Part shown: piece after piece, positions 1,594 through 62,464 of the stretch
Position numbering within the stretch: the first letter of the stretch is position 1
How the letters are laid out: each line of letters starts with the position of its first letter
Assembly: GCF_964355755.1 (NCBI RefSeq)
Contig: NC_092672.1
Span: 31,068,437 to 31,132,436, forward strand
Length of the DNA: 64,000 bases
From: Antedon mediterranea
Taxonomy: Eukaryota; Animalia; Echinodermata
Reading direction: 5' to 3'
Translations under genes and position numbers: made by a program
Notes under the pieces: model-generated
Databases searched by the model: none
Seen by the model: only the letters and a program-made list of their open reading frames with translations
Told to the model about the DNA's origin: nothing

Positions 1594-1720
1594 CTGTGCT
1601 TGAGAACGAATTTAACATTTTTGTAGGCGAAGGCAACAAGCCAGGTACTAATGATTGTGAAGATTCCAAAAATAACTGCAGATTGTACAAGGTCCATCTG
1701 ATAAATTCGCCAGTACACCC
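1594..1720 (-). CDS. SSR3: Translocon-associated protein gamma (TRAP-gamma), coding exon 2; later exons not identified in this window
   Basis: ttttttag acceptor and AG|gtgatt donor; reads (W)[41 protein letters not shown], in phase with exon 1. Confidence 0.93.
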
Positions 1721-4547: not shown

Positions 4548-4674
4548 AAATTGGTATAGCTGATACGATAAATGCGTTTCCATAGAATAGGGCAGATGAT
4601 TTTGTGCTGACATTTCTGCTGAAATCCTGGAGCAAAAGCTCTTCTTCCTTGGTAAGTTTCTTTCCGCCAGCCAT
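4548..4674 (-). CDS. SSR3: Translocon-associated protein gamma (TRAP-gamma), coding exon 1
   Basis: [42 protein letters not shown] is the recognisable SSR3 N-terminus; donor gtaagt follows in phase 1. Confidence 0.95.
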
Positions 4675-8426: not shown

Positions 8427-9020
8427 TTATTGTGTATTCGTTTCTTGTATGCCAAATTTAAGAAAATCGGTAAACATGACAGGGCCGTTTTCACCCACCT
8501 CCTGAATTGGAGTACAATAATTGAGGGTATTATCTCCAAAAACCTCTTGTGAAGCAACACCAATAACTCCACTAGTGCGTCCTACTTCTCGTGATGCTGT
8601 AGCGCCAGCGACTCCGGTGTTTTCCACTTTCTGTGATGCTGCAGCGCCAGCGACTCCGACGTGTTCCTCTTTTTGTGATGCAGCAGCGCTAGCGACTCCG
8701 GTGCTTTCCACTTCTTGTGATGCTGCAGAAGCGTCAGCGACTTCGGTATTTTCCCCTTCTTGTGATGCTGCAGCGCCAGCAACTCCAGTGAGTTCCTCTT
8801 TTTGTGATGCCGAAGCGCCAGCAACTCCAGTGTGGTCCTCGTTTAGTGATGCTGCAGCGTCTTGTCCTGTAGCGCCGCCGGGGACATCTTCAGCTTTTTG
8901 TTGTAAAACAGCATCGGCGGTATCGTTGTTTGTAACTATGATGGAAACACCACCGCTTCCATTAAGCCGGATCTCAATTCTAATATGTATGTCTTCTTCT
9001 TCTCTTCTTCTTCTTTCCAT
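8427..9020 (-). CDS. Type A family copy A2, main exon
   Basis: Intact ORF after ttacag acceptor, ends LKFGIQETNTQ-stop; frame open upstream to ATG 9083. Confidence 0.78.
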   Translation of the reverse strand: MERRRREEEDIHIRIEIRLNGSGGVSIIVTNNDTADAVLQQKAEDVPGGATGQDAAASLNEDHTGVAGASASQKEELTGVAGAAASQEGENTEVADASAASQEVESTGVASAAASQKEEHVGVAGAAASQKVENTGVAGATASREVGRTSGVIGVASQEVFGDNTLNYCTPIQEVGENGPVMFTDFLKFGIQETNTQ

Positions 9021-9566: not shown

Positions 9567-9653
9567 CTCTTTTAGTAAATACAGAGGTGAGTATGGTGTT
9601 TCGGTAGGCATTCGCAAGATTATTGACATTTGCAAATAAATTTGGTGCGCCAT
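9567..9653 (-). CDS. Type A copy A2, putative first coding exon
   Basis: MAHQIYLQMSIILRMPTETPYSPLYLLKE then gtaatt donor, phase 0. Confidence 0.55.
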
Positions 9654-11027
9654 GAGAGAGCCTGTACACTACTTTTCAACTCCGTCGCACCCTTCTGGAG
9701 AAGAGGCTATTAATTAATATGCATAAATTACTAATTTTATACATACAAATATATAAGAAGAAAACTGTATAAGAAATGTGATCCACTACACCGACTGAAA
9801 AAGTTAAATTCATTTTTCATTTTATTTCTACATTCGCTAGAAATGAGTTACCAGGGATCATCTCAATATAGATGGTTATTGGCCTATCCACTGTGCTGCA
9901 GACAATATCTGGAGTTTCCTCTGGTGGTAAGATGATCTCTGGATTCATCACTTTGCACCGTTTGCGGGTTGTGCTATTAATAGTTTATCTTTTTGGTGGG
10001 TAGTAAGCTCCACCTAGCTATCGAGTCGAAAAAATCCTGCATACATTGCATGAATGAACCGTGTTCCTTACAACATTATTCTCATTTATAGGTCCATGCT
10101 CACACTATGATTTTAACAAGTAGTTTTAGTGTCTACCAAAATTATCAATAAACTGTTATATGATGTGCTCATTATATAAAATAATTGTTTTTTAATTATC
10201 GTATTCGATTATGTAAATTTGTAGTTGAAATGTTATTTTTTTTTAAAATTAATATAAAACTATTCATTGATTTTTCAGATATCTGTTCATTATTTTATCT
10301 TTTAGTAAGATCATGGAGGAATGAATTAATTCCTCTGAGTAGGTGTACTGCAGAAGTTGGTCGAAAAGAGCCGTCGCCGCCTTGCCATTCCTCTAAGAAT
10401 ATGGTTTGTGGCATAATATATCCTGGATTTATGAAGCGCCTAATGTTGTGAAACATCAGCTAATTTTGCTGTGTGTGTATGAACATTATCAAGAACCGGC
10501 ATCCGTAGCCTAGTATGTTACTGTAGAGAAACAATAAATCGAGATCAATTCCTGCTCCCTAGTGTATCTTGAAAATTCCTAGATTATTTGCTGTAGGCCT
10601 CAATTAATTCCTTTCAATTTGGCTGCTAAAAGTCACAATGATTTCGTAGTATTTTTCGTATGTGCAAACCCACCAACTACATGCTTCCAATAAAGTACGA
10701 AATGGACTGTGATCATATTCTAGGTGTGATAACTGTTTAAACAAACATTAATTTAAATATCTAAGTATCGAATATAGTGTGTGATAACACAGTCTTATCT
10801 TTCAAAATTACAATAGGCAAATTCCTAATTCCAAATTTCACAACAAAAAACAAACAAACAAAATACTAAATTATGAGTTATTTATTACAAGTTGTTTTGT
10901 AAATATCAAAATTTACTCAAATTGCATCTGCAAAGAGTTTAAAAAAACTTATATATATGTATAATCAGTAAAATTATATTAATAATTGTTCTGCCATAAA
11001 TTCAATAAACAATTGGTAGTACCATGA

Positions 11028-11621
11028 TTATTGTGTATTCGTTTCTTGTATACCAAATTTAAGAAAATCGGTAAACATGACAGGGCCGTTTTCACCCACC
11101 TCCTGAATTGGAGTACAATAATTGAAGGTATTATCTCCAAAAACCTCTTGTGAAGCAACACCAATGACTCCACTAGTGCGTCCTACTTCTCGTGATGCTG
11201 TAGCGCCAGCGACTCCGGTGTTTTCCACTTTCTGTGATGCTGCAGCGCCAGCGACTCAGACGTGTTCCTCTTTTTGTGATGCAGCAGCGCTAGCGACTCC
11301 GGTGCTTTCCACTTCTTGTGATGCTGCAGAAGCGTCAGCGACTTCGGTATTTTCCCCTTCTTGTGATGCTGCAGCGCCAGCAACTCCAGTGAATTCCTTT
11401 TTTTGTGATGCCGAAGCGCCAGCAACTCCAGTGTGGTCCTCGTTTAGTGATGCTGCAGCGTCTTGTCCTGTAGCGCCGCCGGGGACATCTTCAGCTTCTT
11501 GTTGTAAAACAGCATCGGCGGTATCGTTGTTTGTAACTATGATGGAAACACCACCGCTTCCATTAAGCCGGATCTCAATTCTAATATGTATGTCTTCTTC
11601 TTTTCTTCTTCTTCTTTCCAT
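11028..11621 (-). pseudogene. Type A family copy A3, main exon with premature stop
   Basis: GGA of A2/A4 is TGA at 11256-11258, removing both C-terminal motifs; the rest is nearly identical to A2/A4. Confidence 0.75.
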
Positions 11622-13944: not shown

Positions 13945-14538
13945 TTATTGTGTATTCGTTTCTTGTATGCCAAATTTAAGAAAATCGGTAAACATGACAG
14001 GGCCGTTTTCACCCACCTCCTGAATTGGAATACAATAATTGAGGGTATTATCTCCAAAAACCTCTTGTGAAGCAACACCAATGACTCCACTAGTGCGTCC
14101 TACTTCTCGTGATGCTGTAGCGCCAGCGACTCCGGTGTTTTCCACTTTCTGTGATGCTGCAGCGCCAGCGACTCCGACGTGTTCCTCTTTTTGTGATGCA
14201 GCAGCGCTAGCGACTCCGGTGCTTTCCACTTCTTGTGATGCTGCAGAAGCGTCAGCGACTTCGGTATTTTCCCCTTCTTGTGATGCTGCAGCGCCAGCAA
14301 CTCCAGTGAGTTCCTTTTTTTGTGATGCCGAAGCGCCAGCAACTCCAGTGTGGTCCTCGTTTAGTGATGCTGCAGCGTCTTGTCCAGTAGCGCCGCCGGG
14401 GACATCTTCAGCTTTTTGTTGTAAAACAGCATCGGCGGTATCGTTGTTTGTAACTATGATGGAAACACCACCGCTTCCATTAAGGCGGATCTCAATTCTA
14501 ATATGTATGTCTTCTTCTTCTCTTCTTCTTCTTTCCAT
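13945..14538 (-). CDS. Type A family copy A4, main exon
   Basis: Intact ORF with NYCIPIQEVGE and LKFGIQETNTQ-stop; frame open upstream to ATG 14601. Confidence 0.78.
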   Translation of the reverse strand: MERRRREEEDIHIRIEIRLNGSGGVSIIVTNNDTADAVLQQKAEDVPGGATGQDAAASLNEDHTGVAGASASQKKELTGVAGAAASQEGENTEVADASAASQEVESTGVASAAASQKEEHVGVAGAAASQKVENTGVAGATASREVGRTSGVIGVASQEVFGDNTLNYCIPIQEVGENGPVMFTDFLKFGIQETNTQ

Positions 14539-20114: not shown

Positions 20115-22024
20115 TAAACAGTCAACATGTGTCTGCCACGACAATTTACGGTCAAGATTGACACCTAGTAACTTTGCATGCTCAACACACTTGACTTCGG
20201 ATCCATTCACAGTGATTAAATATACTGTTCATACTATCTTGAATTTTGCACTCGGAGTTCTTATTATATCTTTGGTAAAAGGTGGTATCGTCCATATTTC
20301 TTCATAAGCGGCAGATCGACCTGGAGGTCATCAATATGAAGGCAACAAACAGGATTGGACCAAGCCATGATCCTTGTGTTGTGGGATTATCGTGAGTTTT
20401 TATGTAGTAAAAACATTTTATACAAAACTAAACGATTAAAAAAAGTGTATGTTCAATTAAAAAATAAATATTTTATTGTTTCTTTACTATAAATTAATAA
20501 ATAAACGACGATATTGTCCATTTTACTGAAATACTCTCCCGCACATAAACCAGGAAGTTGAGATAAACTGTGTAATGAAATACAGTAGTAAATAATCGTA
20601 AGTAGAAAATATCATTGTATTCTTTACTTTTTTTGTGGATATAATTCATTTTTTTAGAAAAAGAACGAACTAGAATATAGTCCATCATTATTATATAAAC
20701 AAAATAATACTAGTTTTGTTAATATAGCCTGGTTCAGTTTTTAGTAAAACTCGCATATTTTGCAACCCTTTTATACATTGTTATTGTTATCGGCGAGAAA
20801 ACGGTTTGGCGATAGGCTTAGAAAGTGCGTTGACGCCCGCGATGACCGTGACGGTAATGTGGGCCTAGAATGAAGCTAGGCCGAAACATAGAAAATTCGT
20901 AATAGTTAAACCTTTAATTACCCTAATCCTAAATGTAATCATTATAACTGTTACCAAATAATTAATGGCATGTGTTTATAATAATAATTATTGCTTTCCT
21001 GGTGCATTTTTAGGCTAGCTGGTGTGACTGAGTGACAGTCACAGCTAGGCTAGGCCTTAATATTAATACATTTGTACAGTATAATAATGGTTTAATATTT
21101 TGGCTATTAGCTCTCTTGTTTGGATTTGTTTGGACACAAAACTGAAGTACTGTAGATTTAAAAATTGATTTATTTTTAAAGGAAAGTACTGTTGCTATTG
21201 TTTTTGTAATCAAGATGACATTAGAACCAACAATGTTCCTCAAGCCTGTAGATATCTCAAGGCCTACAAGTCTTTGTAGACCATGGCAGTGATAAAAAAG
21301 AAGCAAAACAATATCGCACAGCGTTGTTAGGCCATACCTGGTAGAAGTTGAATTAAACAGGGTAGGTAAATAATCATAACCACCTCTTTAGAAAGTTTAA
21401 TACACACTCCAAACAATGAAATGTGTGTTTGTACTTCATAATTATTAAAGAACAATGTTAGTATAAAATAACTGTCGAAACAAACAATTGTTACAGTAAT
21501 TTATAAATATAGGCCTACCTCTTTTCTTTATTAAATATTTCCTCAATCAACTATTTTTCCAGGTGTCAATATGTTATAATATTCAACATGCGACAGGATG
21601 CTGACATCTTGACTGGTAAATTCAAATGTTGTTTCAACTTTACATTGACATTACATAATAACTCAATTGGTCAAGTTGCTTTTTAAACAGTCTTATTATT
21701 ACCTTTAAATTCAAACTTCCTAAGTTCACCTTTCTGACCAATTCTAAAGTCAAAGAAAATCACTTCTTACATCACAAACTTTACTCTTCCTTTAATGATA
21801 CAAGTTAAATTGCATCGGTAAGATGCATTAAAAGAATTGTTGATAGTGTTTAGACATTTACAAATATACAGTACCTCTTTACTATCTTGGAAAGCTCACA
21901 ACAGGTGAATCTTAATTGGTCTGGTAAAGATATAACCTATAGCCTAATTTATAAATTACTGTAACAATTGTTTGTTTCGACAGTTATTTTATACTAACAT
22001 TGTTCTTTAATAATTATGAAGTAC

Positions 22025-23760
22025 AACCCACTTCCAATACTCCATTCCATTAATACTTCATTTGAAAATAAAGAATTCTTATTAAGTACATTTATTGATT
22101 TATCTAAGGCGTTTGATGTTATAAGTCATAAAATATTACTTTCTAAACTTTTTCGTTATGGTATTAGAGGTATATCTCATGACTGGTTCACAAGTTACCT
22201 CAGCGGATAGAAACAATATGTTCAGATTGGTACATTTAAATCATCGACGATGGAGATAAAACAAACATAACCACAGTGTGGAGTACTACAGGGATCTGTT
22301 CTTGGTCCGTTACTGTTCTTGATATACGTTAATGATTTACCTCGCGTTAGTGATACTCTTCATGTTGTTTCCTTCGCCGATGATACTATATTATTTTTTT
22401 TATTTATTCGGTATATAAAAATATATTACAAAACGACAGTCAAGGACTGAAATGAAATGTATTACAAATGACTAAAAATTAGTTAAAATTGCTATAAAAA
22501 TAGAAACATCTTAATAAAATTAGATATCGTACCATACAATTAAAAACATACATGAATAAAAAACCTTAAAACATTCACTTATTACATATCTAAAAAAGAG
22601 CTAGTGGTGCCTATTAATTATATCCACCATGGTGGGAACTGGAGACGACCTAAGTCTGTTGGTTTTACAATGAGGTACTTCTAGAAAGCGGTTGACTCTG
22701 AGAGACCGAGCTGGCTTATGAAGAGGGGGAAGTATTTCTCTAAACAGCTCGGATTTTAATAAGCCTTCCCCGAAAGACAACACAAGTTTGTTTCTTCTCT
22801 CTACAAGGTAAACCAGTAACAGACAATGCATGATCATAGCACAAATAGTTGTTACCTAGCATGATACGCAATGCTCTCTTTTGTACAAATAATAATATTG
22901 TTAATTTGTATAAAAACTTTAATAGCGAATTAACATAGATTTGTGCTTGGTTCACTGCAAATAAGCTTTTGATAAATACTACTAAAACCAATTATATTTT
23001 ATTTAATTCACACCGTATAAAGTCTAAACTTAAACTAAAAAATCTAAATAATTATCTTAATGGCAATATCATCGAACGCAAAATTGAGACTGCTTTTCTT
23101 GGTGCAATTATCCACGAAAATCTAAATTGGTCTAGCCATCAAAAGTATATTTGCAATAAAATATCTAAATACATGGGATTATAAACAAACTGAAGCACTT
23201 TTTTCCTCAACATATTTTGCTTAATTTATATAATTCTTTTATTCTTCCTCATTTGCAATATTGTAACATTATCTGGGCAGCCGACTTTACCATTAATATC
23301 ATGAAAATCTTTAAATTACAGTAAAAGTAGAAGTACCATTTACGAGGCTAAAAAAGACTCAAGTTTTTGTTACAGTATATGGTCCTAAGTTATGGAATGA
23401 ACTGTCTATAGAAACGACTTGCTGTAAAAACCTTAAAATATTTAAAAAACTATAAAAAAAAAACGTTTGTTTCCAAATATAAATAATGTGCCGTAGGCCT
23501 AATTAGATTTGTTATTTGTTAAATGAAAAAAATAAACCATTTATAAATTTTTTTTTAGGATTATAATTTATAGATCTACTATCATTAGCTAATAATTTGT
23601 CATGCAGTTGCTCTTTTGTTGTTTTTGTTTTGGGGTTGGTATTTGACAAGTTCTTTTACTTTTTTTCTGATCCCAGAAACAGTTCTTATTTAATGTTACC
23701 ATTTTAAGTTATTGTAATTAATGTATGCTGTTTTATTTCATGAACTGTTTCTAAATAAAT
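22025..23760 (+). mobile_element. Decayed L2/CR1-type LINE reverse transcriptase with nested minus-strand LINE fragment (about 22395-22880)
   Basis: [29 protein letters not shown] and FADD motifs with stops and frameshifts; the nested piece is absent from the duplicate at 33.7-36.3 kb. Confidence 0.9.
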
Positions 23761-25323
23761 GTTGTTGATTGACACAGTGGTAGGAATTGTACTAAAAGTG
23801 TTGTTTTATGTAGGCCTACTCAAAACGGCGTGAAATCAATACAGATAATTATGATGCACAAATCAGGCCCGTAGGCAGGATTGCTATGGAGTAGTTCGAA
23901 TTAAAGTACCACGATTGTATTAAAAAATCCAAAGATTTACCTGAAGATTAACCGAATGTACAAACAATAATTTATTTAATTCTGAATGTAGTCCACAGTG
24001 TTAAATTGTCTTTGATGTTATCATTGAATTATTGCTTTAAACATTAACAAGTATTTTTCTTTTTAATTAAAATGACTGCATTCCGTAGTGCATACATTAA
24101 ATAGTCTTAAAAAATAGGGTGGGTATTGTTTAAATGTATTTGTTATTTAACATTGGGTACAATACTTGGATAATGTTTAGTGGTTAAATGCACATGTAAT
24201 GATAGGCTATTAGGAAGGGGTGTTGTTAACATTGGAACATCATTGAGATTAAACGTTTTCCGGGAAAAATATGTACAGAAGAAAACAGATTATAAGTGAT
24301 CTTTTAAGATCCATAATAATAATAATAAATGCCATGGAAGTGAGAATAAGCAAAGCCCAAACAGATCTCACTCTATATTACAGTAAACAATTTATCAGTT
24401 TAAATGAATAATTATACATATCAAACTAAAATAATAATGGCTTTAATAGAATTATTTTATATCGTCAAACACAGTGTTTGGTCAGAGAAGCTGTAATATT
24501 GAAATTGTTGTGAAAAAAAGTGAATTCACTTGATATTTGTTCCCATAGTCATGGAATTATAGAATTAATAACAAAAGTAAAAGCATCTGCCATTAATTGT
24601 AATCATTAGTACTGTACTTAAACTATACAGTACTTACAATCTATTAGTCTGGGTTCCAGACGGAGTCTTGTCTTAATTTAGTAAAAAGATAAATATTTTT
24701 GCACATATGGCGTTTCATACGTATACTACTTGGTTTGGATATTTTCAGACAAAAATCGAAATAAAAAGAAATAAAATAAATAAATAGACAATGAATACAG
24801 ACTTGGGGCAAGTCTAGCAATCTATCTGCAATACTTGGATATGTTCTGCGGGTACTCACTGGTGATCAACAATGAGTGTGTTCAACCGCAAAATTACTCT
24901 CATAAAACTATAGTATACAGGAACATATCGTGAATTTGAAGTAGTAGGACTGTTTGCCCAAATTACCCGTCCCGTTTGAAATCTGTACAATTTATACTTA
25001 AACTGAAAATGTGTCAACAACTTTTGTAATAAAATCTCAGAGTACATTGATTCTAATGAGTACCATACGATACAATAATTACTATTACATGATCATCAGT
25101 AATTATTAATCTTCAGAAAAGCATGGTCTACTGGTCTATGGTCTACTTGTGTCCCAAACAGAAGACCATTCAGGTTCGAATCACGCATCATCCTCTCGCA
25201 AAGATGCTCGTTGCTCCAAATTAAAATGTACAAATAAAGTTCTTATACATTCGCTAAATGATGATACGATTGAATTGTTCCATTCCATGAAATACACAAT
25301 AAACAATTGATAGTATCAATTGT

Positions 25324-25611
25324 TTATTGTGTATTTGTTTCTTGTATACCGAATTTAAGATCGTCTTCGCCAACTTCTTGGATAGGAGGGCAATAATTGA
25401 CGGCGGCACCGTTGTCTTCAAAAACTCCATTGCTTCCTGAAGCTGTGCCGGATGCATTATCGTTGTTGTTCTCGTCTTGTGAACCAACATCGTTGTTTCC
25501 AACCTCTTCAATAGAAAAAGCACCGCCTCCAACTCTAAGCCAAAACTTGTCGATGCCGATTTGTATATCTTCCTCTTTAATCCCAGTATTGTTTAGTTCG
25601 TGATCTCCCAT
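25324..25611 (-). CDS. Type B family copy B1 (95 aa from the ATG in the main exon)
   Basis: ttttactttcacag|ccATGG acceptor and strong start context; EEDIQIGI, FSIEEVG, NYCPPIQEVGE, LKFGIQETNTQ-stop shared with type A. Confidence 0.78.
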   Translation of the reverse strand: MGDHELNNTGIKEEDIQIGIDKFWLRVGGGAFSIEEVGNNDVGSQDENNNDNASGTASGSNGVFEDNGAAVNYCPPIQEVGEDDLKFGIQETNTQ

Positions 25612-25909
25612 GGCTGTGAAAGTAAAATATAATTATAATGACATTGATTACTGATTTCTTCACACTTATCATTTATTAATTTACTTATTCACTTCTATAT
25701 CTCTATACAAACCGAGATTAATAATTACTGTATATATTTAAACCATCGTTGCCTCGTCTGTTTTTTTTTTTAACCTCTCGCTACGACCTTGAGTATTATT
25801 GGTAGTAGGACTTTAGTAATAGCAGTATTGTTTTTTATGTTATTGCAAACGGTATACATACTAAAATTTAAGTTTTTGTAGATACCGTACTCATATATTT
25901 ATACCATAC

Positions 25910-30870: not shown

Positions 30871-33684
30871 AAATAATATAAAGAAATATGATAAAATATT
30901 TATTAGGCCTACTACCGGGTGTCTTGTAGTAGTATAGGACCGTTTAGACCTGCATAAATAGAGGACGGATCTGGTGTGTTAGTATCTTTTTTATAGTGAA
31001 ATCTGTACTTACCAGGCTCTGTCAGAAAAATAAATGTATCTTCAAAAAGACGACAGAAGAAGCGTCGAGGATATATATTTCACGAATTGAATGAAAAAAG
31101 CACATGTTGAACCAGTCGTTTCAATATCCTAGCCCCGCCTCCTTTAAACAACCACTCAGCGCTCTAGGATGTTGTCACTGACTTTAGACGGGAGGGATAA
31201 CACATGCGCAGTCCACCAGCGAGTCATTGCAAAAAAGAATGTAAACAAAGTAGATAGAACTTGACATCATGGACTACGTCCATACAATACAACCTGTTAT
31301 AAACTGTAGATTAAATAAAGTCATGGTTATTGAGTGATATATTGCCATATTATTATAGTTCAGATTAAAGTGTCAAGTTTTTTTAGAGATTTTAAACTAG
31401 CTACCACACAATTGTAGGCCTATATAGCCTACCCATTTACGGAAGCTATAGAGTAATTAGCTACACTTTCTTTCTCAGCGATGACATATCCATCCATATA
31501 GCTTTAGGTATAGATGAATTCACAGAGACCTCTTCACGATTAGTTAGAGAAAAAAAAACTGATATGAAGGTCTTTAAAAAGAGAAATTACCAAATTGAAA
31601 ATATTAACTGGAAAATTAATAGTAATGTAAAGGCGCTTTCAGATTGTTTTTTTTTTTTCAAACATAATCACGAAAACTGGGATAATAGAATTTTGTTTAA
31701 ACTCAAAATATAATGAATCCATGGTCTAATGGTATCTGACATTTAGTGGTGGAATATGTATTATTAAGTTCAATTTCAATTTGTGTGTTTTTTAAACAGG
31801 TAAAACAAAATTGGTAGCATGGTTATAAGACAAAGAGCGGATACAAATTAAAAACATATAAAAAAGATCTAGGCATATAGAAAAACTGACAATATAAAAA
31901 CATACAAATAACATTGAAAAATAGCAACTATAAAATAAAAAGTAAAAAACCTGGAAAACATTCAAATTAGTTGGCATAAAAGTCTGTGTAAGGTTACTGT
32001 AAAAGTGTTTCAATTAAAATTACCTTTTGAATTCAGAATTGTATGTACACTTTGTATGGCATTATGAAAGAATATCTAGTCCTTGTATTGATTCTGATTC
32101 CTCTTATTCGTTATTCTATTTACAGTTAAATACAAATCAGTCTTTCATGACTGTAGATGGTGGTCATCCAGGTTACATAGGCCTACATTGCACCTAATGG
32201 TTCTCCAGCGATTTTCATAATGCGCAGTATTGTCATTTTGTTATACATTGTAAGGTTACTAAACTATAATGACAGTAGTAAAATTTGGGTCAACTTTGGC
32301 CATTGCTTTGCTTTTTTGCAAAGATCGTCAGTATTCGACGTCCATGTAAGCTTACAGTCTGATGTTACCCAAGTATACTTATTTATTAAAAGTCTCAATT
32401 AATATCATCACCATTAAATTCAAACTTTCTAAGTTCACCTTTCTGACCAGTTTTAAATCGAAGAAAATCTAAAAGCGGTGTAAATAAATAACTCCATTTT
32501 CTTGGGAGCAGAAACAGGGCAATTTTGTGGTAACCGGTTAAAAGGCAGCGCCAAATAACCGGTTAAAAACACCCACCATTCAATTCGGTGTTACATCACA
32601 AACATTACTGCCTTTAATGACACTTGACATACCAATTTAAATTGCATCGGCTAAGATGCATTAAAGAATTGAATTTAAAAATATGCAGTACCTCTTTACT
32701 ATCTTGGAAACCTCACAACAGGTGAATATAAAGATATAGGCCTAACCCGATTAATTATGTCGATTGACACAATATATTTACAAAAATAGTACGACTATAA
32801 GAGAGATGTTAAGAATACACATGACAAAGTGATGGTTCCGAAAGGGACATTATTCTTAAATCTACAAAATCAAAGGCGCTATAATAAATAATATTAACAG
32901 GTACTGAATAATACTATTTATCGTTCTTATGGTTTTAAACCAACCTTTTCTAACAACAATATAGCCTATTGACATTAGAACATTTGGTTATACATTGTTA
33001 TTATAAACATAGTTTTGATTATTTTAAAAACACCTGTTGTAGCCTTTGCATGTTATCTCCCAAAAAAATATTTTAAAAATAACAATGGTTACTTTTACCG
33101 ACCACTGGCTGCCCAGTAGAACTTATCAACTTACTTAAAGTTAACTTATGGTCTCGTAAAGCTAGCCACGCTGGCTAAAAAGTCCAATATGAACGTGTCA
33201 CTCAGGTTAACACATGACATTCACTTTGTGTCAATTGTTGTTTTTTAACATCACAGTAAATTGTTATACAACCTGGTAAAACTATAACTGCGTGCAAAAT
33301 AGTGCAAACAATGGTTTAATCATGGACCTATAAATTAGTCGATCTCATGGTTAATTTTCTAAAAAAAAGGCTTTATAGGCCTATATCGGTATCTTTATTT
33401 CCACAAAACAAAATAGTTCAATACAAAAAATATAAGTGCCAGGCAACCAATAATTGAGGGGACTCATTTACAATTAGTAAAATATATAGTGGGCCTATAA
33501 ATATAAAAATAAGAAAAAAAAAATAGCAAGTGACTCGCCTCAAGGGCATTGGCTGTTCTTGCGCTGCTCCATGCGGGGGTGGCTGAAGTCATCTCTCGTT
33601 AATGAAGCACTCAACATTGAGAATAAACTATCAATCTATGGTGCATTATTCCTTGATATGTTTGCGATTAAATCCACAATACTT

Positions 33685-36345
33685 CCACTTCCAATACTCC
33701 ATTCCATTAATACTTCATTTGAAAATAAAGAATTCTTATTAAGTACATTTATTGATTTATCTAAGGCGTTTGATGTTATAAGTCATAAAATATTACTTTC
33801 TAAACTTTTTCGTTATGGTATTAGAGGTATATCTCATGACTGGTTCACAAGTTACCTCAGCGGATAGAAACAATATGTTCAGATTGGTACATTTAAATCA
33901 TCGACGAGGGAGATAAAACAAACATAACCACAGTGTGGAGTACTACAGGGATCTGTTCTTGGTCCGTTACTGTTGTTGATATACGTAAATGATTTACCTC
34001 GCGTTAGTGATACTCTTCATGTTGTTTCCTTCGCCGATGATACTATATTATTCAAATAATAATATTGTTAATTTGTATAAAAACTTTAATAGCGAATTAA
34101 CATAGATTTGTGCTTGGTTCACTGCAAATAAGCTTTTGATAAATACTACTAAAACCAATTATATTTTATTTAACTCACACCGTAGAAAGTCTAAACTTAA
34201 ACTAAAAAATCTAAATATTTATCTTAATGGCAATATCATCGAACGCAAAATTGAGACTGCTTTTCTTGGTGTAATTATCCACGAAAATCTAAATTGGTCT
34301 AGCCATCAAAAGTATATTTGCAATAAAATATCTAAATACATTGGGATTATAAACAAACTGAAGCACTTTTTTCCTCAACATATTTTGCTTAATTTATATA
34401 ATTCTTTTATTCTTCCTCATTTGCAATATTGTCAGTGGCGTAACAGGCGGGGGGGGTAGGGGGGCGGAATACCCCCCTGGCGGATTTTACCGGGTTGAGA
34501 AGCGTTCGATCGGGCTGGGTAACAAGTCAAAAAAATAAAATAAAATACAAAGAAGGGATAGAAGAAAGAAAAAGAAAGAAAATATAAGAATAAAATATAC
34601 GATATATGATATGGCTTCAAATGAGTCACAGTACAGTATGGTATTCAAGTAAGATGATATGAAATACACAAAATCCTGACTGACAACTCGTGGGAAGACG
34701 CACTGCTTATCAGTACATTAACATGCACACAATTGTGACGCTGTGCTGTGCGTGTGAGGCCACCTTAAAAAAATACACTCCTACTAATCGTATGTAACGC
34801 GCTAGCGATCAGCAAAATGAACGTACTTTCGTGGCTGGCTGTCACTCCAATACTCAATCTTTCACAGGCATACTAACACAACACTACGATTGTTTACTAC
34901 AGGCCTAGTCAAGCCTTAATAAATTTAATTAATATAAATCGACATAAGAATATAAAGTTTATTTTAACTAAAATATTAAAACCTAACACTAAATTTACAA
35001 GATAAATTCTATTTGATAACTGCTGAACATCGTGGTTCTGGAGCTAGCCGTACACAGAGCATAGTTGTTTGCTTGACATAAAAGGGTATTCCCCTACACA
35101 GGTCTCTGCGTGCGTGTGACGTGCCCAGCCAGCTGCTTGATAGTATAGAGAGAAAGCATGCAGCTCACGCAAGTGCAAGATGCAATGGTTGAGTGAATTC
35201 AGGGATCATCTTAATTCCATGGTTTGTTACCTAAACACCACATGATGGTGAATATGCCTGTTAAAGTCTCAATGATACGATCCCTTAATGTACCATGTTG
35301 TTGCTAGGAGGCTTAAAAGGAGGAGGGATCTAGCCTAGTTTCGGTCGGCAAGAGAATGCCGTCCTCTGATAATTTAAGGTCGGCAATAAGGTCGGCAATT
35401 GGGTCGGCAATTGAAATTCGTGGGCTGGAAATTTCACCAAATTATATAGTTCATAAACAAAAGAGTTTAGCCGGAAATGCGATTTGCGGCCATACTATAG
35501 GCCTATAGAGAAAAAAAATCCACCCCGCCGTCAAACCTGGTTACGGCCCTGTTTCAGTCTTCTAACCGGAAAAATTACTACCTTTGCCAGGTGCGGATCC
35601 AATGTTATGTTAGATTGGGTTTTCACATGTTCAAATGTTATGTCACCTGAGTTTTTAACGGTGGAAAATGTACGATCATTTTGCTGATTGCTGTGCAATA
35701 AATGGGAGTGTTATTTCCAGGCCAACTACTACTAGGCCTAGTTAGGCGCCATTTATCATGAATTTTATGTGCGAGAGTACCATTTCCGACGATCTAGGGG
35801 TGTCATTTACCAAAATTCGCTTCGCCACAGCCCCCACCATGGGGGGCTGTGGCTCAAGTACTTGGTGTCTGGAAGGATTTGCTCCTCTTTTCCCCCCCCC
35901 TGACAAGACCCCCTTGTTACGCGGCTGAATATTGTAACATTATCTGGGCAGCCGACTTTACCATTAATATCATGAAAATCTTTAAATTACAGTAAAAGTA
36001 ATTTACGAGGCTAAAAAAGACTCAAGTTTTTGGGGTGTCACGAAACCTAAGACCACGAAAGCGAAATAACAAATAACAAATCTTTGTTATTTGTTAAATG
36101 AAAAAAATAAACCATTTATAAATTTTTTTTTTAGGATTATAATTTATAGATCTACTATCATTAGCTAATAATTTGTCATGCAGTTGCTCTTTTGTTGTTT
36201 TTGTTTTGGGGTTGGTATTTGACAAGTTCTTTTACTTTTTTTCTGATCCCAGAAACAGTTCTTATTTAATGTTACCATTTTAAGTTATTGTAATTAATGT
36301 ATGCTGTTTTATTTCATGAACTGTTTCTAAATAAATGTTGTTGAT
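33685..36345 (+). mobile_element. Duplicate of the decayed LINE RT at 22.0-23.8 kb, interrupted by a hAT-like element
   Basis: Near-identical sequence with the same disabling stops and shared downstream flank, so a segmental duplicate and not an independent insertion. Confidence 0.9.
34433..35927. mobile_element. Non-autonomous hAT-like element
   Basis: Termini CAGTGGCGTAACA / TGTTACGCGGCTG, 8-bp TSD AATATTGT; empty site in the paralog near 23256. Confidence 0.88.
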
Positions 36346-36636: not shown

Positions 36637-36882
36637 TTTCGTTTTTACTCAAAATACTATACATTTTGTTTTTATTTGTATGGGTTTGTGTTAATTTGAT
36701 ACATTTAAATAACATGTGTGAATTTCTTGAAAATCGAAATTCCATTTCAGGTCCATTTTAAAATGGACCTGAAATGGAATTTCGATTTTCAAGAAATTCA
36801 CACATGTTATTTAAATGTATCAAATTAACACAAACCCATACAAATAAAAACAAAATGTTTAGTATTTTGAGTAAAAACGAAA
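36637..36882. repeat. Spacerless palindrome with 123-bp arms
   Basis: Centre GTCCATTTT|AAAATGGAC at 36759/36760; arms complementary except one mismatch seen. Confidence 0.92.
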
Positions 36883-37889: not shown

Positions 37890-38743
37890 TAATTAAAATG
37901 ACTGCATTCCGTAGTGCATACATTAAATAGTCTTAAAAAATAGGGTGGGTATTGTTTAAATGTATTTGTTATTTAACATTGGGTACAATACTTGGATAAT
38001 GTTTAGTGGTTAAATGCACATGTAATGATAGGCTATTAGGAAGGGGTGTTGTTAACATTGGAACATCATTGAGATTAAACGTTTTCCGGGAAAAATATGT
38101 ACAGAAGAAAACAGATTATAAGTGATCTTTTAAGATCCATAATAATAATAATAAATGCCATGGAAGTGAGAATAAGCAAAGCCCAAACAGATCTCACTCT
38201 ATATTACAGTAAACAATTTATCAGTTTAAATGAATAATTATACATATCAAACTAAAATAATAATGGCTTTAATAGAATTATTTTATATCGTCAAATACAG
38301 TGTTTGGTCAAAGAAGCTGTAATATTGAAATTGTTGGTGTTGTCATTAATTGTAATCATTCTACTTCAACTATACTATACTTGATGTGCAATACATAATA
38401 ATGTTCTGCGGGTACTTCACGCACCACCACTGTGTGTTCAACCGCAAAACTCTCATAAAACTGTCAATCTCGTGAATTTGCATTTGAAGTAGTTATGTAG
38501 GATCGGAATGTGACCCAAATTACAAATCCCGTTTGAAATCTGTACAATTTATACTCAACTGAAAATGTGTCAATAACTTTTACAGTATAATAAAATCTCA
38601 GAGTACATTAATTTGAATGAGTACCATACAATAAAATAATTACTATTTACATGATCATCAGTAATTAATCTTCATGAAAAGCATGGTCTACTGGTATAGC
38701 ACTTGTGTCCAAAACAGAAGAGGATTCTGGTTCGAATCACGCA
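37890..38743 (-). pseudogene. Relic 3' flank of a third type B copy; coding exon not present
   Basis: Colinear with 24063-25186 and 48960-50106; homology stops at GGTTCGAATCACGCA where a repeat begins. Confidence 0.6.
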
Positions 38744-42342: not shown

Positions 42343-42843
42343 TTATTGTGTATTCGTTTCTTGTATGCCAAATTTAAGAAAATCGGTAAACATGACATGG
42401 CCGTTTTCACCCACCTCCTGAATAGGAGGACAATAATTGAAGCTATTGCTGTCTTCGAAAACCTCTTGTGAAGCAACGCCAATGACTCCACCAGTGCTTC
42501 CTACTTCTCGTGATGCTGCTCCAGCGCCAGCGACTCCAGTGGTTTCCACTCCATGTGATGCAGCTGCGCTAGCAACTCCGGTGCTTTCCGCTTCTTGTGA
42601 TGCTGCAGAAGCGTCAGCGACTTCGGTGTTTTCCACTTCTTGTGATGCTGCAGCGCCAGTGACTTCGGTGTGTGCTGCAGCGTCTTGTCCTGTAGCGCCG
42701 CCGGGGACATCTTCAGCTTCTTGTTGTAAAACAGCATCGGCGGTATCGTTGTTTGTAACTATGATGGAAACACCACCGCTTCCATTAAGCCGGATCTCAA
42801 TTCTAATATGTATGTGTTCTTCTTCTCTTCTTCTTCTTTCCAT
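42343..42843 (-). CDS. Type A family copy A5 (diverged), main exon
   Basis: Intact ORF with only in-frame indels relative to A1-A4; NYCPPIQEVGE and LKFGIQETNTQ-stop; frame open upstream to ATG 42906. Confidence 0.75.
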   Translation of the reverse strand: MERRRREEEHIHIRIEIRLNGSGGVSIIVTNNDTADAVLQQEAEDVPGGATGQDAAAHTEVTGAAASQEVENTEVADASAASQEAESTGVASAAASHGVETTGVAGAGAASREVGSTGGVIGVASQEVFEDSNSFNYCPPIQEVGENGHVMFTDFLKFGIQETNTQ

Positions 42844-46706: not shown

Positions 46707-48805
46707 GAAAGCCCATTAATGCCATTTTAAGTGTATGTTTTTCGAGCGTTCTAAAGTAGTAATTCGTTTAAACGGATTAATGACAAAATAATTCGTTTAA
46801 CCAGATTAGTAATCCGTTCAAATGGATTACTAATTTGTTCAAACGGATTAGTAATTTGTTCAAACGAATTAATTATTAATTCGTTCAAACAAATTAGTAA
46901 TCCGTTTAAACGAATTAGTAATTCGTTTGAACAGATTATTAATCCGTTGAAACAAATTAGTAATTCGTTTAAACAGATTATTAATCCGTTCAAACAAATT
47001 AGTAATTCGTTTAACCAGATTAGTAATCCGTTCAAACAAATTAGTAATTCGTTTAACCAGATTAGTAATCCGTTCAAATGAATTAATAATTTGTTTAAAA
47101 GAATTATTAATCAGTTCAAATTTATAATTCGTTTGACCGGATTTGATTTGTTTCAACGGATTACTAATCTGTTTGAACAGATTACTAATTCGTTCAAACG
47201 AATTAGCAATCCGTTTAAACAAATTAATAATTCTTTTAAACGGATTACTAATTTGTTCAAACGAATTAGTAATCTGTTTGAACAAATTAGTAATTCGTTT
47301 GAACGAATTAGTAATCCGTTTAAACAAATTATTAATTTGTTTTAACAAATTAGTAATTTGTTTAAACGGATTACTAATTCGTTCAAACGAATTACTAATT
47401 CGTTCAAACAGATTACTAATTCGTTTGAACGAATTAGTAATTCGTTGAAACAAATTAGTAATTCGTTGAAACAAATTAGTAATCCGTTTAAAAAATTAGT
47501 AATCCGTTTAAACAAATTACTAATCCGTTTGGACGGATTCCTAATTCGTTTGAACAGATTATTAATCTGTTTAAAGAAATTAGTAATTCGTTTGAACGGA
47601 TTAGTAATCTGTTCAAACGAATTAGTAATCCGTTCAAACAAATCAGTAATTCGTTTGAACGGATTAGTAATCCGTTCAAACCAATTGCAACATATACAAC
47701 AAGTGCCATTTAAAGTATATGTTGTAATCCGTTCAAACGAATTACAACATATACTTTAAATGGCACTTGTTGTATACTGTATGTTGCAATTCGTTTGAAC
47801 AGATTATTAATCCGTTCAAACGAATTACTAATTCGTTAGAACGGATTACGTTCGAAAAACATATACTTAAAATGGCATTAATGGGCTTTCGTAATATTAT
47901 AATCATGAATCATTCCTGATTCAAATGCAAAATGTGCAAATAGATCAAAAACTATTTTGTTTTTATTGTTTTGTAGTTACGAATATGACTGGTGATATTC
48001 GTCAACACGAATACGCTTTACGAATATGAAATGGGGATCAGCCCAAAGGTTTCACAAATGTATGACGTATCCGTTTTCGTTATCGTATTCGTAAGGTTGC
48101 GAAACGTCCCTATTAATCCGTTTAAACAAATTAGCAATTCGTTTGAACGGATTACTAATCCGTTCAAATGAATTGCGACATATACTTTAAATGGCACTTG
48201 TTGTATATGTTGCAATTCGTTTGAAAGAATTACTAATTCGTTTGAACAGATTATTAGGGAGTTTTCGCAACCTTACGAAACTTTTGAGCTGATCCCCATT
48301 TCATATTCGTAAAGCGTATTCGTGTTGACGAATATTACCAGTAATATTCGTAACTACAAAACGAGTATAGTTTTTGATCTATTTTGCACATTTTGCATTT
48401 GAATCAGGAATGATTCATGACTATAATATAATTATACCTTTATTGAAAGTAATTTACTAAAGTAATTTACTAAAATGCCAGTTCAATTTTGATAAATAGC
48501 AGTTTTTAAAGTCCTCACTCGCTTTGATGTTACGCTAGGCCTAGGCAGCCAAGCAACACGTACCTGCGCTTCGCTCAAATTTACCGCAGTCATATTTTGG
48601 ACGGCGCCCTTAGTATTTCGTTGCCATGCGAAACAGATTTTTACTGGCTTACGAAAAACGAATACGTGTGCGTGGCGTATCCGTTGTCGTTATCGTATTC
48701 GTAAGGTTGCGAAATCTCCCTATTAATCCGTTCAAACGAATTACAAATTCGTTTAAACGGATTACGTTCGAAAAACATATACTTAAAATGGCATAAATGG
48801 CTTTC
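46707..48805. repeat. Composite foldback element with 21-bp minisatellite (ATTAGTAATTCGTTTAAACAG-like) in mixed orientations, plus a nested MITE (48256-48721) and an inverted fragment of it
   Basis: Terminus GAAAGCCCATTAATGCCATTTTAAGT at 46707 with complements ending at 47890 and 48805; absent from paralogous sites near 23900 and 36480. Confidence 0.85.
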
Positions 48806-50239
48806 GTATCCGATTGTATTAAACAAATCCAAAAAGATTTATCTGAAGATTAACCGAATGTACAAACAATTTATTTAATTCTGAATGTAGTCCACAATGT
48901 CTTGTCTTTGAGATTATCATTGAATTATTGCTTTAAACATTAACAAGTATTTTCCTTTTAAATTAAAATGACTGCATTCCGTAGTGCATACATTAAATTG
49001 TCTTAAAAATAGGGTGGGTATTGTTTAAATGTATTTATTATTTAAAATTGGGTACAATACTTGGATAATGTTTAGCGGTTAATGCACATGCAATGATAGC
49101 CTATTAGGAAGGAGTATTGGTAAAATTTGAGATTAAACGTTTTCAGAGAATCGACAAAATATGTACAGAAGAAAACAGATTATAAGTGATCTTTTAAGAT
49201 CCATAATAATAATAATAAATAAAATAATAAATAAATGCCATCGAAGTGAGAATAAGCAAAGCCCAAACAGATCTCACTCTATATTACAGTAAACAATTTA
49301 TCAGTTTAAATGAATAAATATATATTATATCAAACTAAAAAAATAATGGTTTAATACAATTATTTTATATCGTTAAATACAGTGTTTGGTCAGAGAAGCT
49401 GTAATATTGAAATTGTTGGTGACCATTCACTTGATATTAATTGTTCCCATGGTCATGGAATTATAGAATTAATAATAAAAGTAAAAGCATCTGCCATTAA
49501 TTGTAATCATTAGTACTGTACTTAAACTATATATACAGTACTTGCAATCTATTAGTCTGGGTTCCAGACAGAGTTTTGTCAAAATTTAGTAAAAAGATAA
49601 ATATTTTTGCACATATGGCGTTTCATACGTATACTACTTGGTTTGGATATTTTCAGACAAAAATCGAAATAAAAAGAAATAAAATAAATAAATAGACAAT
49701 GAATACAGACTTGGGGCAAGTTTAGCAATCTATCTGCAATACCTGGATATGTTCTGCGGGTACTCACTGGTGATCAACAATGAGTGTGTTCAACCGCAAA
49801 ATTACTCTCATAAAACTATAGTATCTCTAATAATACAGGAACATATCGTGAATTTGAAGTAGTAGGACTGTGGCCCAAATTAAGTCCCGTTTGAAATCTG
49901 TACAATTTATACTTAAACTGAAAATGTGTCAATAACTTTTATAATAAAATCTCAGAGTACATTGATTCTAATGAGTACCATACGATACAATAATTACTAT
50001 TACATGATCATCAGTAGGCCTAATTATTAATCTTCAGAAAAGCATGGTCTACTGGTCTATGGTCTACTTGTGTCCCAAACAGAAGACCATTCAGGTTCGA
50101 ATCACGCATCATCCTCTCGCAAAGATGCTCGTTGCTCCAAAGTAAAATGTACAAATAAAGTTCTTATACACTCTCTAAATGATAATACGATTGTTCCATT
50201 CCATGAAATACACAATAAACAATTGATAGTATCAATTGT

Positions 50240-50632
50240 TTATTGTGTATTTGTTTCTTGTATACCAAACTTAAGATTGTCTTCGCCAACTTCTTGGATA
50301 GGAGGGCAATAATTGACGGCGGCACCATTGTCTTCAAAAACTCCATTGTTTCCTGCTGAAGCTGCGCCGGCGGCGTTGCCGTTGTCTTCAAACACTCCAT
50401 TGCTTCCTAAAGCTGCGCCGGCGGCGGCACCGTTGTCTTCTAAAACTCCATTGCTTCCTGAAGCTGCGCCGGGTGCATTGTCGTTGTTGTTCTCGTCTTG
50501 TGAACCAACATCGTTGTTTCCAACCTCTTCAATAGAAAAAGCACCGCCTCCAACTCTAAGCCAAAACTTGTCGATGCCGATGTTTATATCTTCGTCTTTA
50601 ATCCCAGTATTGTTTAGTTCGTGATCTCCCAT
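50240..50632 (-). CDS. Type B family copy B2 (130 aa)
   Basis: tactttcacag|ccATGG; same domains as B1 with three copies of the GAASGSNGVFEDNG-like unit instead of one. Confidence 0.78.
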   Translation of the reverse strand: MGDHELNNTGIKDEDINIGIDKFWLRVGGGAFSIEEVGNNDVGSQDENNNDNAPGAASGSNGVLEDNGAAAGAALGSNGVFEDNGNAAGAASAGNNGVFEDNGAAVNYCPPIQEVGEDNLKFGIQETNTQ

Positions 50633-56779: not shown

Positions 56780-56940
56780 CTATTCTTTGTCCGGTGTCAT
56801 TTTATGTCGGGAACTTTTTGGAGATTTCATCTTTTTTATTTTCTTTTGGTGGTTAATTTTTACAAGTAGAAATATTGGTTCGAGACGAGTATCTAAAAAG
56901 GCGGGCATTGTCACATCTTCTATCATAATCACATATTCAC
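56780..56940 (-). CDS. Unidentified multi-exon gene, last coding exon
   Basis: ttttttccag acceptor; (G)EYVIMIEDVTMPAFLDTRLEPIFLLVKINHQKKIKKMKSPKSSRHKMTPDKE-stop; phase matches the previous exon. Confidence 0.8.
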
Positions 56941-58829
56941 CTGGAAAAAAAGACAAAGTTTGATAAATATTATAAACAATATTAATTTTACTGTAATGAT
57001 CCTTGGAATTAATGTTATCTTGATTGCTTTTTTAAGATATATTGTCCCCTAAAAAATTTTTTTTTTCTTTTAATTTGTTGTTGAATATGCCATTTAATGG
57101 CACATAATAGTTATTCACTTTGACCAAAAACTGGATCGAAAAAAAATTTTACCTGAAAAAAAATTAACTCAAAGCAAAAAATACTTCAATTGTCTGTCAG
57201 ACAATCGTTTTTTGTTAAACCGTTTTGTTTGTCGACTCTACAGCTCACTATGTCGGTCGGTTGGTCGGTAAACACTAATTCAAATTTGAGCACGAGACTG
57301 CAGCCATGTATATGGCCTTGTTATAAGTGAAATCATTATTTGTTTTGGTTTTTTTTTTACAGAAGTGAATAACTTACAATACATCTTTAAAAGACCCAAT
57401 AATAATGATTCATTTTAACCCTGTATATATATTTGATATTTCTAATACATTCATCAAGTTTGGCCTTGATGACCTTCTCAAGGGCCATTAAATATTCAGT
57501 TTCAACTTTTAGGTTTTATGTGTTAAAAATGTGTGAATAAGATTAAAGATATATTGTCCTGAAAAAATAATTTTTGTATTTTTTTGCTGTTGAATATGCC
57601 ATTTTAATTTCACATATTAGTTATTGACTTCGACCAAAAACTGGATTGAAAAAAAAATGATTTAACTAAAAAATTTGTAATTTAAAGCGAGTTTTTTGGC
57701 TTTTTATAAGTAAAATCATGGCTTTTCCCTCATTGTTTTTCTTATGGAAGTAAATTATTTCATTAAAACTGCAAAATGGTCTATTCCAATATTTATTTTT
57801 TACAATTGATTTTATAATGTGTATTTATCAGTTTTAGTTAGTTTTCCAGTATAGGCTTCAGTTGATGTTATATATTTGTTATAAGATATATTGGTTTTTT
57901 TTTATATATTTTTGAATATGCCATTTTAATGTCACATAATAGTTATCCACTTTGACCAAAAATTGGCTAAAAAAAATTACCTGAAAAAACCTCTAATTTA
58001 AAGCGAAAAATAGTCAAATTGGCTGCCAGTCAATGGGTTTTTGGTTGAATTTAACCGTTTATTTTGTCATTTTATTTATCACATTTTAAGTAAAAAAATC
58101 TTTGCTACAGAAGTGATTAACTTTGTTAAAACTACAAAATGGCCTATTCAAGGTTTGATTATTGTTATTGGTATTATTGTTCTTAATTTTTCATGTTTTT
58201 GGACAATACATAACTGTTATATTTTTGGTAAACTGAGACTCATAATCAGAATTTCAGCGGCTGTTGAACTTTAAGTGTCTTTTCTGAATAAACAAATAAG
58301 GATGCACTCTTTCACCTCTACATGCAAATACACAGGCATAAATTATAGAGGGCGCCATGTCATCATATGTGAATATGTGGAAATGGGTTTTGTCAATGGT
58401 TTTTCTTAATTTTTTCTTTATAATAGTGAGAAAAGATTAGATTCAAGTTAATGGTAATTCTTTAAAATAATGTCTTAATAGTAATATGGAAAATAATGCA
58501 GACAGGAATATATGTAATTTTAGAACAAAATACATAACGTGTAAGCTTGATCAAAATTTAATAGTATGTTATGGTACAACAAAAAAAAACATTTCAAAAG
58601 TATGGGGAAGGTCATGCAGAAGTCAATCTTTGGATAAAAACTGTAAACAATGATGATATAGTTGTAGTAAGTGGAATGACTTATGTCACCATCCAGCTTA
58701 AATTAAAACCATAATCTGTTTTCTTCATGACAAAAACAGGTTGGCATTTACATGACAATAATATGTAGATTAACACCGAAATTGTTTTTTCGGTATACTG
58801 TATTATGTAAGACGTTGCAAACGCTATAC

Positions 58830-58928
58830 CTGGTCTTGCGAATCTCTCGTCTCCGTATCGTCGTTCTCGTTTGACTTGCTGCGTCTTTGGATCAAGTTTA
58901 GCAGTAATCAATGAATCAGGTATTTCAT
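58830..58928 (-). CDS. Unidentified gene, internal exon
   Basis: tttgtag acceptor, CAG|gtatag donor; (D)EIPDSLITAKLDPKTQQVKRERRYGDERFARP, phase 1-1. Confidence 0.8.
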
Positions 58929-60418: not shown

Positions 60419-60572
60419 CTGCATTTTTTCCAAGTTTGGCTCCCAGTCCAAGCTGGCCTGCCAATCGACCAGTTTTCTGATTCCGTAGTTTGTTTCGTGC
60501 CTCCTCATCGAGGATGGCATCCAGAACTTGGAAAGGCCTGTAACCCTGTGGCGCACCTGGTAAGATGACAGA
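60419..60572 (-). CDS. Unidentified gene, internal exon
   Basis: ttcttccag acceptor, CAG|gtgaaa donor; SVILPGAPQGYRPFQVLDAILDEEARNKLRNQKTGRLAGQLGLGAKLGKNA. Confidence 0.75.
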
Positions 60573-62280: not shown

Positions 62281-62464
62281 CTTCTGGTTGAGCCCTGGAG
62301 GATCTCCTCTGCTTTGTCTGTGCACCTTCATAAGGTGCCAGCTGTGGCTTCACCGCTGCCTTCTGCTTGCCTGGAGAACTCATTGCTTTTTGTTTACGGT
62401 CTTCCTCAGCATCCAGGACAATAAAAGGAAGGTAACCTGGTGGATGTCTAGGCAGCACTAGGTT
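62281..62464 (-). CDS. Unidentified gene, internal exon paralogous to the 60.5-kb exon
   Basis: ctgtcag acceptor; NLVLPRHPPGYLPFIVLDAEEDRKQKAMSSPGK...RAQPE; donor AAG|gtgctg is weak, so the 3' boundary is uncertain. Confidence 0.65.

What the first reader, a model, noticed from the sequence alone, without database searches (positions are those of the whole stretch)
25324..25400. Synonymous-only divergence of the C-terminal motifs between types A and B
PIQEVGE is CCA ATT CAG GAG GTG GGT GAA in A2 and CCT ATC CAA GAA GTT GGC GAA in B1, so six of seven codons differ and all are silent. LKFGIQETNTQ differs at three silent sites (TTT/TTC, GGC/GGT, ACG/ACA) and the Cys codon differs silently (TGT/TGC). 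The spacer between the motifs differs by an in-frame indel. This is direct evidence of purifying selection on two short linear motifs on the minus strand.
Basis: seen in the sequence. Interest (0 to 1): 0.7.

Follow-up and report, generated by a model that had tools for sequence, protein, structure and literature searches.

The report
Orphan proteins guarding repeated docking motifs
Seven neighbouring copies of a small animal gene with no relative in the databases I searched keep two short protein motifs unchanged while most of their codons drift silently, and these motifs likely serve as docking sites on a floppy protein, possibly for TRAF immune-signalling adaptors, which is untested.

Summary
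Over the 22 motif codons A2 vs B1 shows 10 silent and 1 replacement change, A5 vs B1 9 and 0 (permutation 3 and 2 of 200,000). No other frame fits as well. Constraint also holds without choosing the motifs (whole-ORF omega 0.17-0.23, C-terminal block 0.04). The locus is a seven-copy family of 95-197-aa acidic, low-complexity ORFs beside SSR3, probably in a feather star (earlier unchecked notes). No true relative was found. A shared N-terminal block exists. The motifs look like repeats of one core, xI[QE]E[VT]. A hairpin overlaps the stop codon. Young copies are relaxed or broken, so the selection shown is historical. My best reading is whole small disordered proteins starting at an ATG behind a 5'-UTR intron and carrying several docking motifs. 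PIQE fits the major TRAF1/2/3/5 motif Px(Q/E)E, which suggests cytosolic TRAF decoys or scaffolds (about 0.35). Expression, splicing and binding are untested.

The parts
25324..25611 (-). Copy B1 ORF, 95 aa, acidic and low-complexity
25366..25398 (-). B1 motif 1 NYCPPIQEVGE; PIQE (25375-25386) fits Px(Q/E)E
25327..25359 (-). B1 motif 2 LKFGIQETNTQ, followed by stop 25324-25326
25489..25575 (-). B1 N-terminal block (EEDI...SIEEVGNND), homologous to the A N-terminus and matched by further contigs from the same organism
25290..25336 (.). Perfect inverted repeat (22-bp arms, 3-nt loop) over the last codons, stop and 3' flank; same in B2 (50206-50252), shorter in A5, decayed in the A1 and A2 folds
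25614..25640 (-). Pyrimidine tract and AG, putative splice acceptor 2 nt before the B1 ATG
   Evidence: sequence; splicing not shown
50240..50632 (-). Copy B2 ORF, 130 aa (longer linker)
42343..42843 (-). Copy A5 ORF, 166 aa from the ATG behind the putative acceptor
13945..14538 (-). Copy A4 ORF, 197 aa
11028..11621 (-). Copy A3, broken by an in-frame stop at 11256-11258 upstream of both motifs
8427..9020 (-). Copy A2 ORF, 197 aa
5886..6422 (-). Copy A1 ORF; family stop lost, reads on 10 codons

Best explanation
These seven ORFs show protein-level purifying selection on short motifs and likely encode whole, small, disordered cytosolic proteins whose repeated xI[QE]E[VT]-type motifs would dock on a partner, most likely the receptor-binding groove of TRAF2/3-type adaptors, making them predicted TRAF decoys or scaffolds. 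Shown: the coding constraint, its concentration on the motifs, free change of linker length, and broken or relaxed young copies. Inferred: (a) translation starts at the ATG right behind a splice acceptor (about 0.7), because homologous A and B place it in different phases (0 vs 2 nt after AG), which suits a 5'-UTR intron better than a coding junction; (b) disorder; (c) the partner (about 0.4 given a and b). With no membrane or catalytic domain, such a protein would compete with receptor tails for TRAF, or cross-link TRAF trimers through several motifs. The A and B types would tune this by motif number and spacing.
For: Selection. Acidic Gly/Ala/Ser/Thr/Asn-rich composition (B1: 19 D/E, 4 K/R in 95 aa); AlphaFold mean pLDDT 43.8 with no secondary structure (only 6 sequences). 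PIQE is invariant in 7 of 7 window copies. It matches the major TRAF1/2/3/5 motif Px(Q/E)E (PMC6125299, parts 1-2 of 4 read) and 4 of the 5 residues of PIQEE, the TRAF2/3 site of OX40 and of polyomavirus ALTO (bioRxiv 10.1101/2024.05.24.595774, passages). B carries the core three times (SIEEV, PIQEV, GIQET; 0.01 expected in shuffles, pattern chosen after the fact). The 14-aa A linker repeats carry a similar ASQEV-type core, which MAFFT aligned to the B N-terminal copy. TRAF3 and TRAF6 are reported in a sea cucumber (PMC13673367, passages). One contig from run X1 seems to hold motif 2 with different flanks, no stop and no hairpin (loose ends at 25328 and 25360 read by hand; same contig inferred).
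Against: Px(Q/E)E is a 3-residue pattern: PxQ alone has shuffle P 0.10-0.17; the wider recalled form [PSAT]x[QE]E has P 0.015-0.026 among 12 patterns tried. The P+2 position is Val, where acidic or polar residues are favoured. GIQET lacks the P-2 proline, and the minor motifs PxQxT, PxQxxD and the TRAF6 motif are absent. Conservation spans 11 residues per motif (NYC, LKFG), more than TRAF needs. A B1-like contig in a second sample has PIQE changed to PIQQ plus L85P and D84V, and a high-depth contig there shows 8 replacements and 1 silent change among the 9 listed N-terminal differences. No transcript, splice junction or first exon is shown.
Confidence: 0.35

Rival explanations
1. Same small disordered proteins, but the repeated motif docks on another hub by adding a beta-strand (LC8 dynein light chain, a TPR or J-domain recognising an IEEV-like word, or an SH2 domain at YxxP).
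For: LKFGIQ resembles the GKAP LC8 site LSIGIQVD at positions -5 to 0, and LC8 partners often have two sites under 50 aa apart in disordered linkers (PMC12797016, passages). YxxP is in all copies tested (shuffle P about 0.02). SIEEV/PIQEV resemble the Hsp70 tail (recalled, from no call). The conserved stretch is longer than a TRAF core.
Against: LC8 sites have T or V after the Gln, and replacing the hydrophobic flanks abolishes nNOS binding; here the +1 residue is Glu in both motifs. EEVD recognition needs a free C-terminal Asp (recalled); these words are internal and lack it.
Confidence: 0.33
2. The ORFs are last exons, giving the cytoplasmic tails of longer membrane receptors (TNFR-like) or alternative ends of the multi-exon gene at 56.8-64 kb; or, in type A, the 21 codons upstream form a membrane anchor.
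For: Every copy starts behind a pyrimidine tract and AG. TRAF motifs are typical of receptor tails. The A frames stay open 21 hydrophobic codons upstream, followed by RRRR. A1-A4 units hold a possible in-phase 29-codon upstream exon (9653-9567 in the A2 unit, read by eye).
Against: A and B acceptors differ in phase and both are followed by an ATG. I saw no Cys-rich or transmembrane exon among minus-strand stop-to-stop frames of 38 aa or more, GC at least 0.33, beyond 14.6 kb (by eye; short exons would be missed). A1-A4 units are only about 2.6-2.9 kb. The upstream extension shows 4 replacements and 2 silent changes between A2 and A5 and is absent in B. The candidate exon's donor is missing in A5. 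The search for longer relatives found none, which is weak evidence.
Confidence: 0.17
3. The conserved blocks are beta-strands of a small fold or of a self-stacking (RHIM-like) motif, with the variable repeats looping out.
For: The N-terminal block has alternating hydrophobic residues and a Gly turn; B1 holds IQIG, a RHIM core word (pattern recalled).
Against: IQIG is in 1 of the 4 copies scanned (B2 has INIG). AlphaFold gave no fold (pLDDT 43.8, pTM 0.12), though on a shallow alignment. The motif spacer varies from 2 to 9 residues.
Confidence: 0.1
4. The pattern comes from nucleic-acid constraint (the hairpin), from an antisense frame or from chance, not from a protein.
For: A 22-bp hairpin covers the last codons (z -4.3 in B1) and has one compensated pair between A and B. 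No RNA or protein record supports expression.
Against: All differences lie outside or at the edge of the hairpin, and 10 of 11 (A2-B1) and 9 of 9 (A5-B1) are at third positions. The antisense frame has stops. Whole-ORF omega is below 1. Covariation is no better than shuffles (245 of 500 for pairs with two-sided change).
Confidence: 0.03

Closest known systems
TRAF2/3-binding site PIQEE of OX40 (TNFRSF4) and of Merkel cell polyomavirus ALTO NTAR2 (bioRxiv 10.1101/2024.05.24.595774, passages)
   Same: PIQE identical at P-2 to P+1, in a disordered-looking context with more than one motif per chain.
   Different: P+2 is Val, not Glu; no detectable homology; no shown membrane anchor or ectodomain; binding untested.
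TANK (cytosolic TRAF binder, SVPIQCTDKT; PMC6125299 parts 1-2; PMC11117997 passages)
   Same: Cytosolic, non-receptor protein with a PIQ-centred motif that uses the receptor site on TRAF.
   Different: TANK uses PxQxT/PxQxxD, which is absent here. No Pfam match for 4 of 4 copies scanned, apart from one weak RAP1 hit at E 0.13. Much shorter, multi-copy, several motifs.
Multivalent LC8-binding disordered proteins (GKAP, nNOS, ASCIZ; PMC12797016 passages)
   Same: Disordered chain with two close GIQ/PIQ-type words; LKFGIQ matches LSIGIQ at L, G, I and Q.
   Different: Glu instead of Val/Thr after the anchor Gln; no TQT.

Membership tests
TRAF1/2/3/5-binding proteins | Major motif Px(Q/E)E | tested here: met
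   PIQE in 7 of 7 window copies; changed to PIQQ in one contig of another sample
TRAF1/2/3/5-binding proteins | Acidic or polar residue favoured at P+2 | tested here: not met
   Val in 7 of 7; a preference, not an absolute rule
TRAF1/2/3/5-binding proteins | Physical binding to a TRAF domain | not testable with these tools
TANK/I-TRAF | PxQxT or PxQxxD motif and sequence homology | tested here: not met
TNF receptor superfamily | Cys-rich ectodomain and transmembrane helix upstream of the tail | tested here: inconclusive
   None seen by eye; short or distant exons not excluded; no RNA junctions
TRAF6-binding proteins | PxExx(aromatic/acidic) | tested here: not met
   0 matches in 4 of 4 copies scanned (motif as)
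LC8-binding proteins | TQT or (G)IQV-type anchor with T/V at +1 | tested here: not met
   +1 is Glu in both motifs; the terminal TQ is followed by the stop
RHIM proteins | Conserved (I/V)Q(I/V/L)G core (recalled) | tested here: not met
   1 of 4 copies scanned
Known RNA family (hairpin) | Rfam match at gathering score | tested here: not met
   0 matches in the 64-kb window

The most novel reading that the evidence does not exclude
A lineage-specific, birth-and-death family of tiny soluble proteins built only from repeated TRAF-docking words on linkers of adjustable length. They would act as host-encoded multivalent TRAF sponges or receptor-free activators, like a TNF-receptor tail or viral LMP1/ALTO without a membrane part, and tune NF-kB signalling by motif number and spacing.
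Probability: 0.25. Interest if true: 0.65.

Novelty: new variant of a known kind. Interest (0 to 1): 0.36.

Why it matters
Silent-only divergence of short motifs in a disordered protein is an ordinary signature; here it turns an unannotatable repeat into a real gene family and points at the residues to test. If the motifs bind TRAFs, the family is a minimal, copy-number-variable regulator of innate immune signalling in a little-studied animal group, and one peptide-binding experiment would decide it. If not, it remains an orphan family with an unexplained repeated docking word.

Tried and rejected
Homologue searches: near-length with B1 (none at E 1) and A5 (none at E 10). The longer-protein search with the 6-sequence alignment covered only 346-2000 aa (none; weak evidence). 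The full representative scan gave 3 hits; all 3 are long tandem-repeat proteins, which I rejected as summed low-complexity matches. Pfam: nothing credible. PDB sequences: 0. Exact look-up: 0 of 10. ESM Atlas: nothing usable for B1 or A5. Viral and metagenome contigs: none confirmed among 91 and 107 pattern matches. None of this proves absence, as animal proteomes may be thinly covered.

Expression: no RNA holder listed. Run X1 is only guessed to be RNA and covers all 30 bins of a mostly non-coding 20-kb stretch. One high-depth X1 contig ends at 25614, the putative acceptor, but no joint was listed, so I draw nothing from it. No whole genome is held, so genome-wide copy number is unknown.

AlphaFold model too poor for a fold search. 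kB sites do not cluster at the copies. My first hairpin pairing string was out of register and was redone.

Papers: 0 hits for PIQEVG, FGIQET, PPIQEV, SIEEVG; listings showed no description of this family (titles and abstract starts only; subscription papers and supplements not seen). Earlier scan notes: nothing near or by sequence.

Full report
Setting. The window is AT-rich animal DNA (GC about 0.26-0.44 per kb) with transposon remnants. SSR3/TRAP-gamma exons lie at the left (Pfam PF07074, E 1e-14 and 6e-14) and an unidentified multi-exon gene at the right. Earlier scan notes call the genome a feather star (unchecked, not tested by me). Seven minus-strand ORFs share the C-terminal motifs: A1-A4 in a tandem array of about 2.6-2.9-kb units at 5.9-14.5 kb, B1 at 25.3 kb, A5 at 42.3 kb and B2 at 50.2 kb.

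Observation. Over NYCxPIQEVGE plus LKFGIQETNTQ (22 codons) A2 vs B1 has 10 silent and 1 replacement change and A5 vs B1 has 9 and 0. Binomial P is 1.0e-6 and 5.6e-7. A permutation that keeps substitution types reached so few replacements in 3 and 2 of 200,000 trials. Four other frames turn nearly all changes into replacements; the antisense frame that shares third positions holds 3 stops. Because the motifs were chosen for identity, I fitted a pairwise codon model to all ungapped aligned codons. Omega is 0.23 (A5-B1) and 0.17 (A2-B1), both significantly below 1; it is 0.04 from NYC to the end and 0.25-0.33 upstream (a protein-guided alignment biases these values down). The one replacement in A2 vs B1 is the x position before PIQE (Thr, Pro or Ile).

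Limits of the signal. It reflects one old split. Within types constraint is weak: dN/dS 0.76, 0.79, 0.21, 0.60 and 0.63 for the five A pairs tested and 0.38 for B1-B2, on few changes. A3 has an in-frame stop and A1 has lost the family stop. In a second sample (run X1) a B1-like contig carries E79Q, D84V, L85P and T56A. A high-depth contig there has 8 replacements and 1 silent change among the 9 of its 12 differences listed. This is the picture of a birth-and-death family in which some copies decay.

First, A and B also share an N-terminal block (EEDIxIxI...GG..SI...NND). Several contigs from the DNA runs match only this block and run on into unlike sequence (X2 records 11-16, X3 records 19-23), so further types likely exist outside the window. 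One X1 contig appears to carry motif 2 with different flanks and an open frame beyond it (hand-read loose ends), which argues that motif 2 does not depend on the stop or the hairpin. Second, the motifs look like repeats of one core: B has SIEEV, PIQEV and GIQET, and the A linker is built from about 14-aa repeats with an ASQEV-type core. Third, a perfect 22-bp inverted repeat covers the last codons, stop and 3' flank in B1 and B2 (25290-25336; z -4.3 and -4.6). It is shorter in A5 (z -3.8) and not significant in A1 and A2. It shows one two-sided pair change between A and B, not beyond shuffles, and no Rfam match. Template switching could explain it as well as function (inference).

Gene model. 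Each ORF begins at an ATG right behind a pyrimidine tract and AG: 0 nt after in A, 2 nt after in B. A phase difference between homologues is harmless only if the junction lies in the 5' UTR, so I read these as whole proteins of 95-197 aa. The 21 hydrophobic codons upstream in A look like translated intron tract (4 replacements, 2 silent between A2 and A5; absent in B). No RNA holder was listed, so splicing and expression are untested.

Protein nature. The proteins are acidic and Gly/Ala/Ser/Thr/Asn-rich, with linkers that vary by 30-100 residues. AlphaFold gives no fold (pLDDT 43.8 on 6 sequences). No true relative was found.

Mechanism. Conserved islands in a variable disordered chain point to docking motifs. 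The best named match is the TRAF groove. PIQE fits the major motif Px(Q/E)E (PMC6125299, parts 1-2 of 4 read) and shares four of five residues with PIQEE, the TRAF2/3 site of OX40 and polyomavirus ALTO (bioRxiv 10.1101/2024.05.24.595774, passages). Echinoderms have TRAF3 and TRAF6 (PMC13673367, passages). A soluble protein with several such words and nothing else would compete with receptor tails or cross-link TRAF trimers. Against this: the pattern is short (PxQ shuffle P 0.10-0.17), P+2 is Val, GIQET lacks the proline, the minor and TRAF6 motifs are absent, and the conserved stretches are longer than TRAF needs. I give it 0.35. An LC8-like or other strand-adding hub is the close rival (LKFGIQ vs GKAP LSIGIQVD, but Glu at +1; PMC12797016, passages). 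Receptor tails (0.17), a small fold or stacking motif (0.10) and non-coding causes (0.03) follow.

Novelty and verdict. The evolutionary signature is ordinary and real. The family was not found in the databases above or in paper searches (0 papers with any of four motif words; listings), which miss most subscription journals and supplements. It is not a member of TANK, TNFR, LC8-partner or RHIM families by the features I could test; at best it works like a TRAF-binding tail. Interest 0.36, rising to about 0.65 if it proves to be a multivalent TRAF decoy family.

Noticed in passing
window 4549-4674 and 1594-1720 (-): First two coding exons of SSR3/TRAP-gamma (Pfam PF07074), the left neighbour of the cluster.
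   Followed up: yes
window 56780-63937 (-): Unidentified multi-exon gene (exons near 63.9, 63.4, 62.4, 60.5, 58.9 and 56.9 kb, read by eye). The 62.4-kb and 60.5-kb exons are paralogous (48% over 27 aa, E about 1e-3) and may be alternative or repeated exons. No Pfam match for the three exons scanned.
   Followed up: partly
window 6478, 9076, 11677, 14594, 42899: A perfect AP-1 site (TGACTCA) about 60 nt upstream of the ATG in all five A copies; 5 of the 7 such sites in the window, but inherited from one ancestor and absent in B.
   Followed up: partly
window 24258-24266 and 38084-38092: A perfect STAT/GAS-type site TTCCGGGAA about 1 kb downstream of B1 and in a duplicated copy of that flank; could be chance.
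   Followed up: no
window 38384-38743 (-): A third copy of the B-type 3' flank (78% to 24824-25187) without the ORF, starting behind an acceptor-like AG; a contig resembling it has high depth in run X1.
   Followed up: partly
window 9567-9694 (-), and the matching place in the other A1-A4 units: Possible upstream exon with an ATG and a 29-codon frame in phase with the A ORF; its donor region is missing in A5.
   Followed up: partly
window 36637-36882: Near-perfect 123-bp-arm palindrome with no spacer, at a junction of rearranged duplicated segments.
   Followed up: no
window 22019-22207, 33571-33864 (+); 46707-48430: Reverse-transcriptase remnants (Pfam RVT_1, below cut-off) and a self-complementary short-period satellite.
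   Followed up: no
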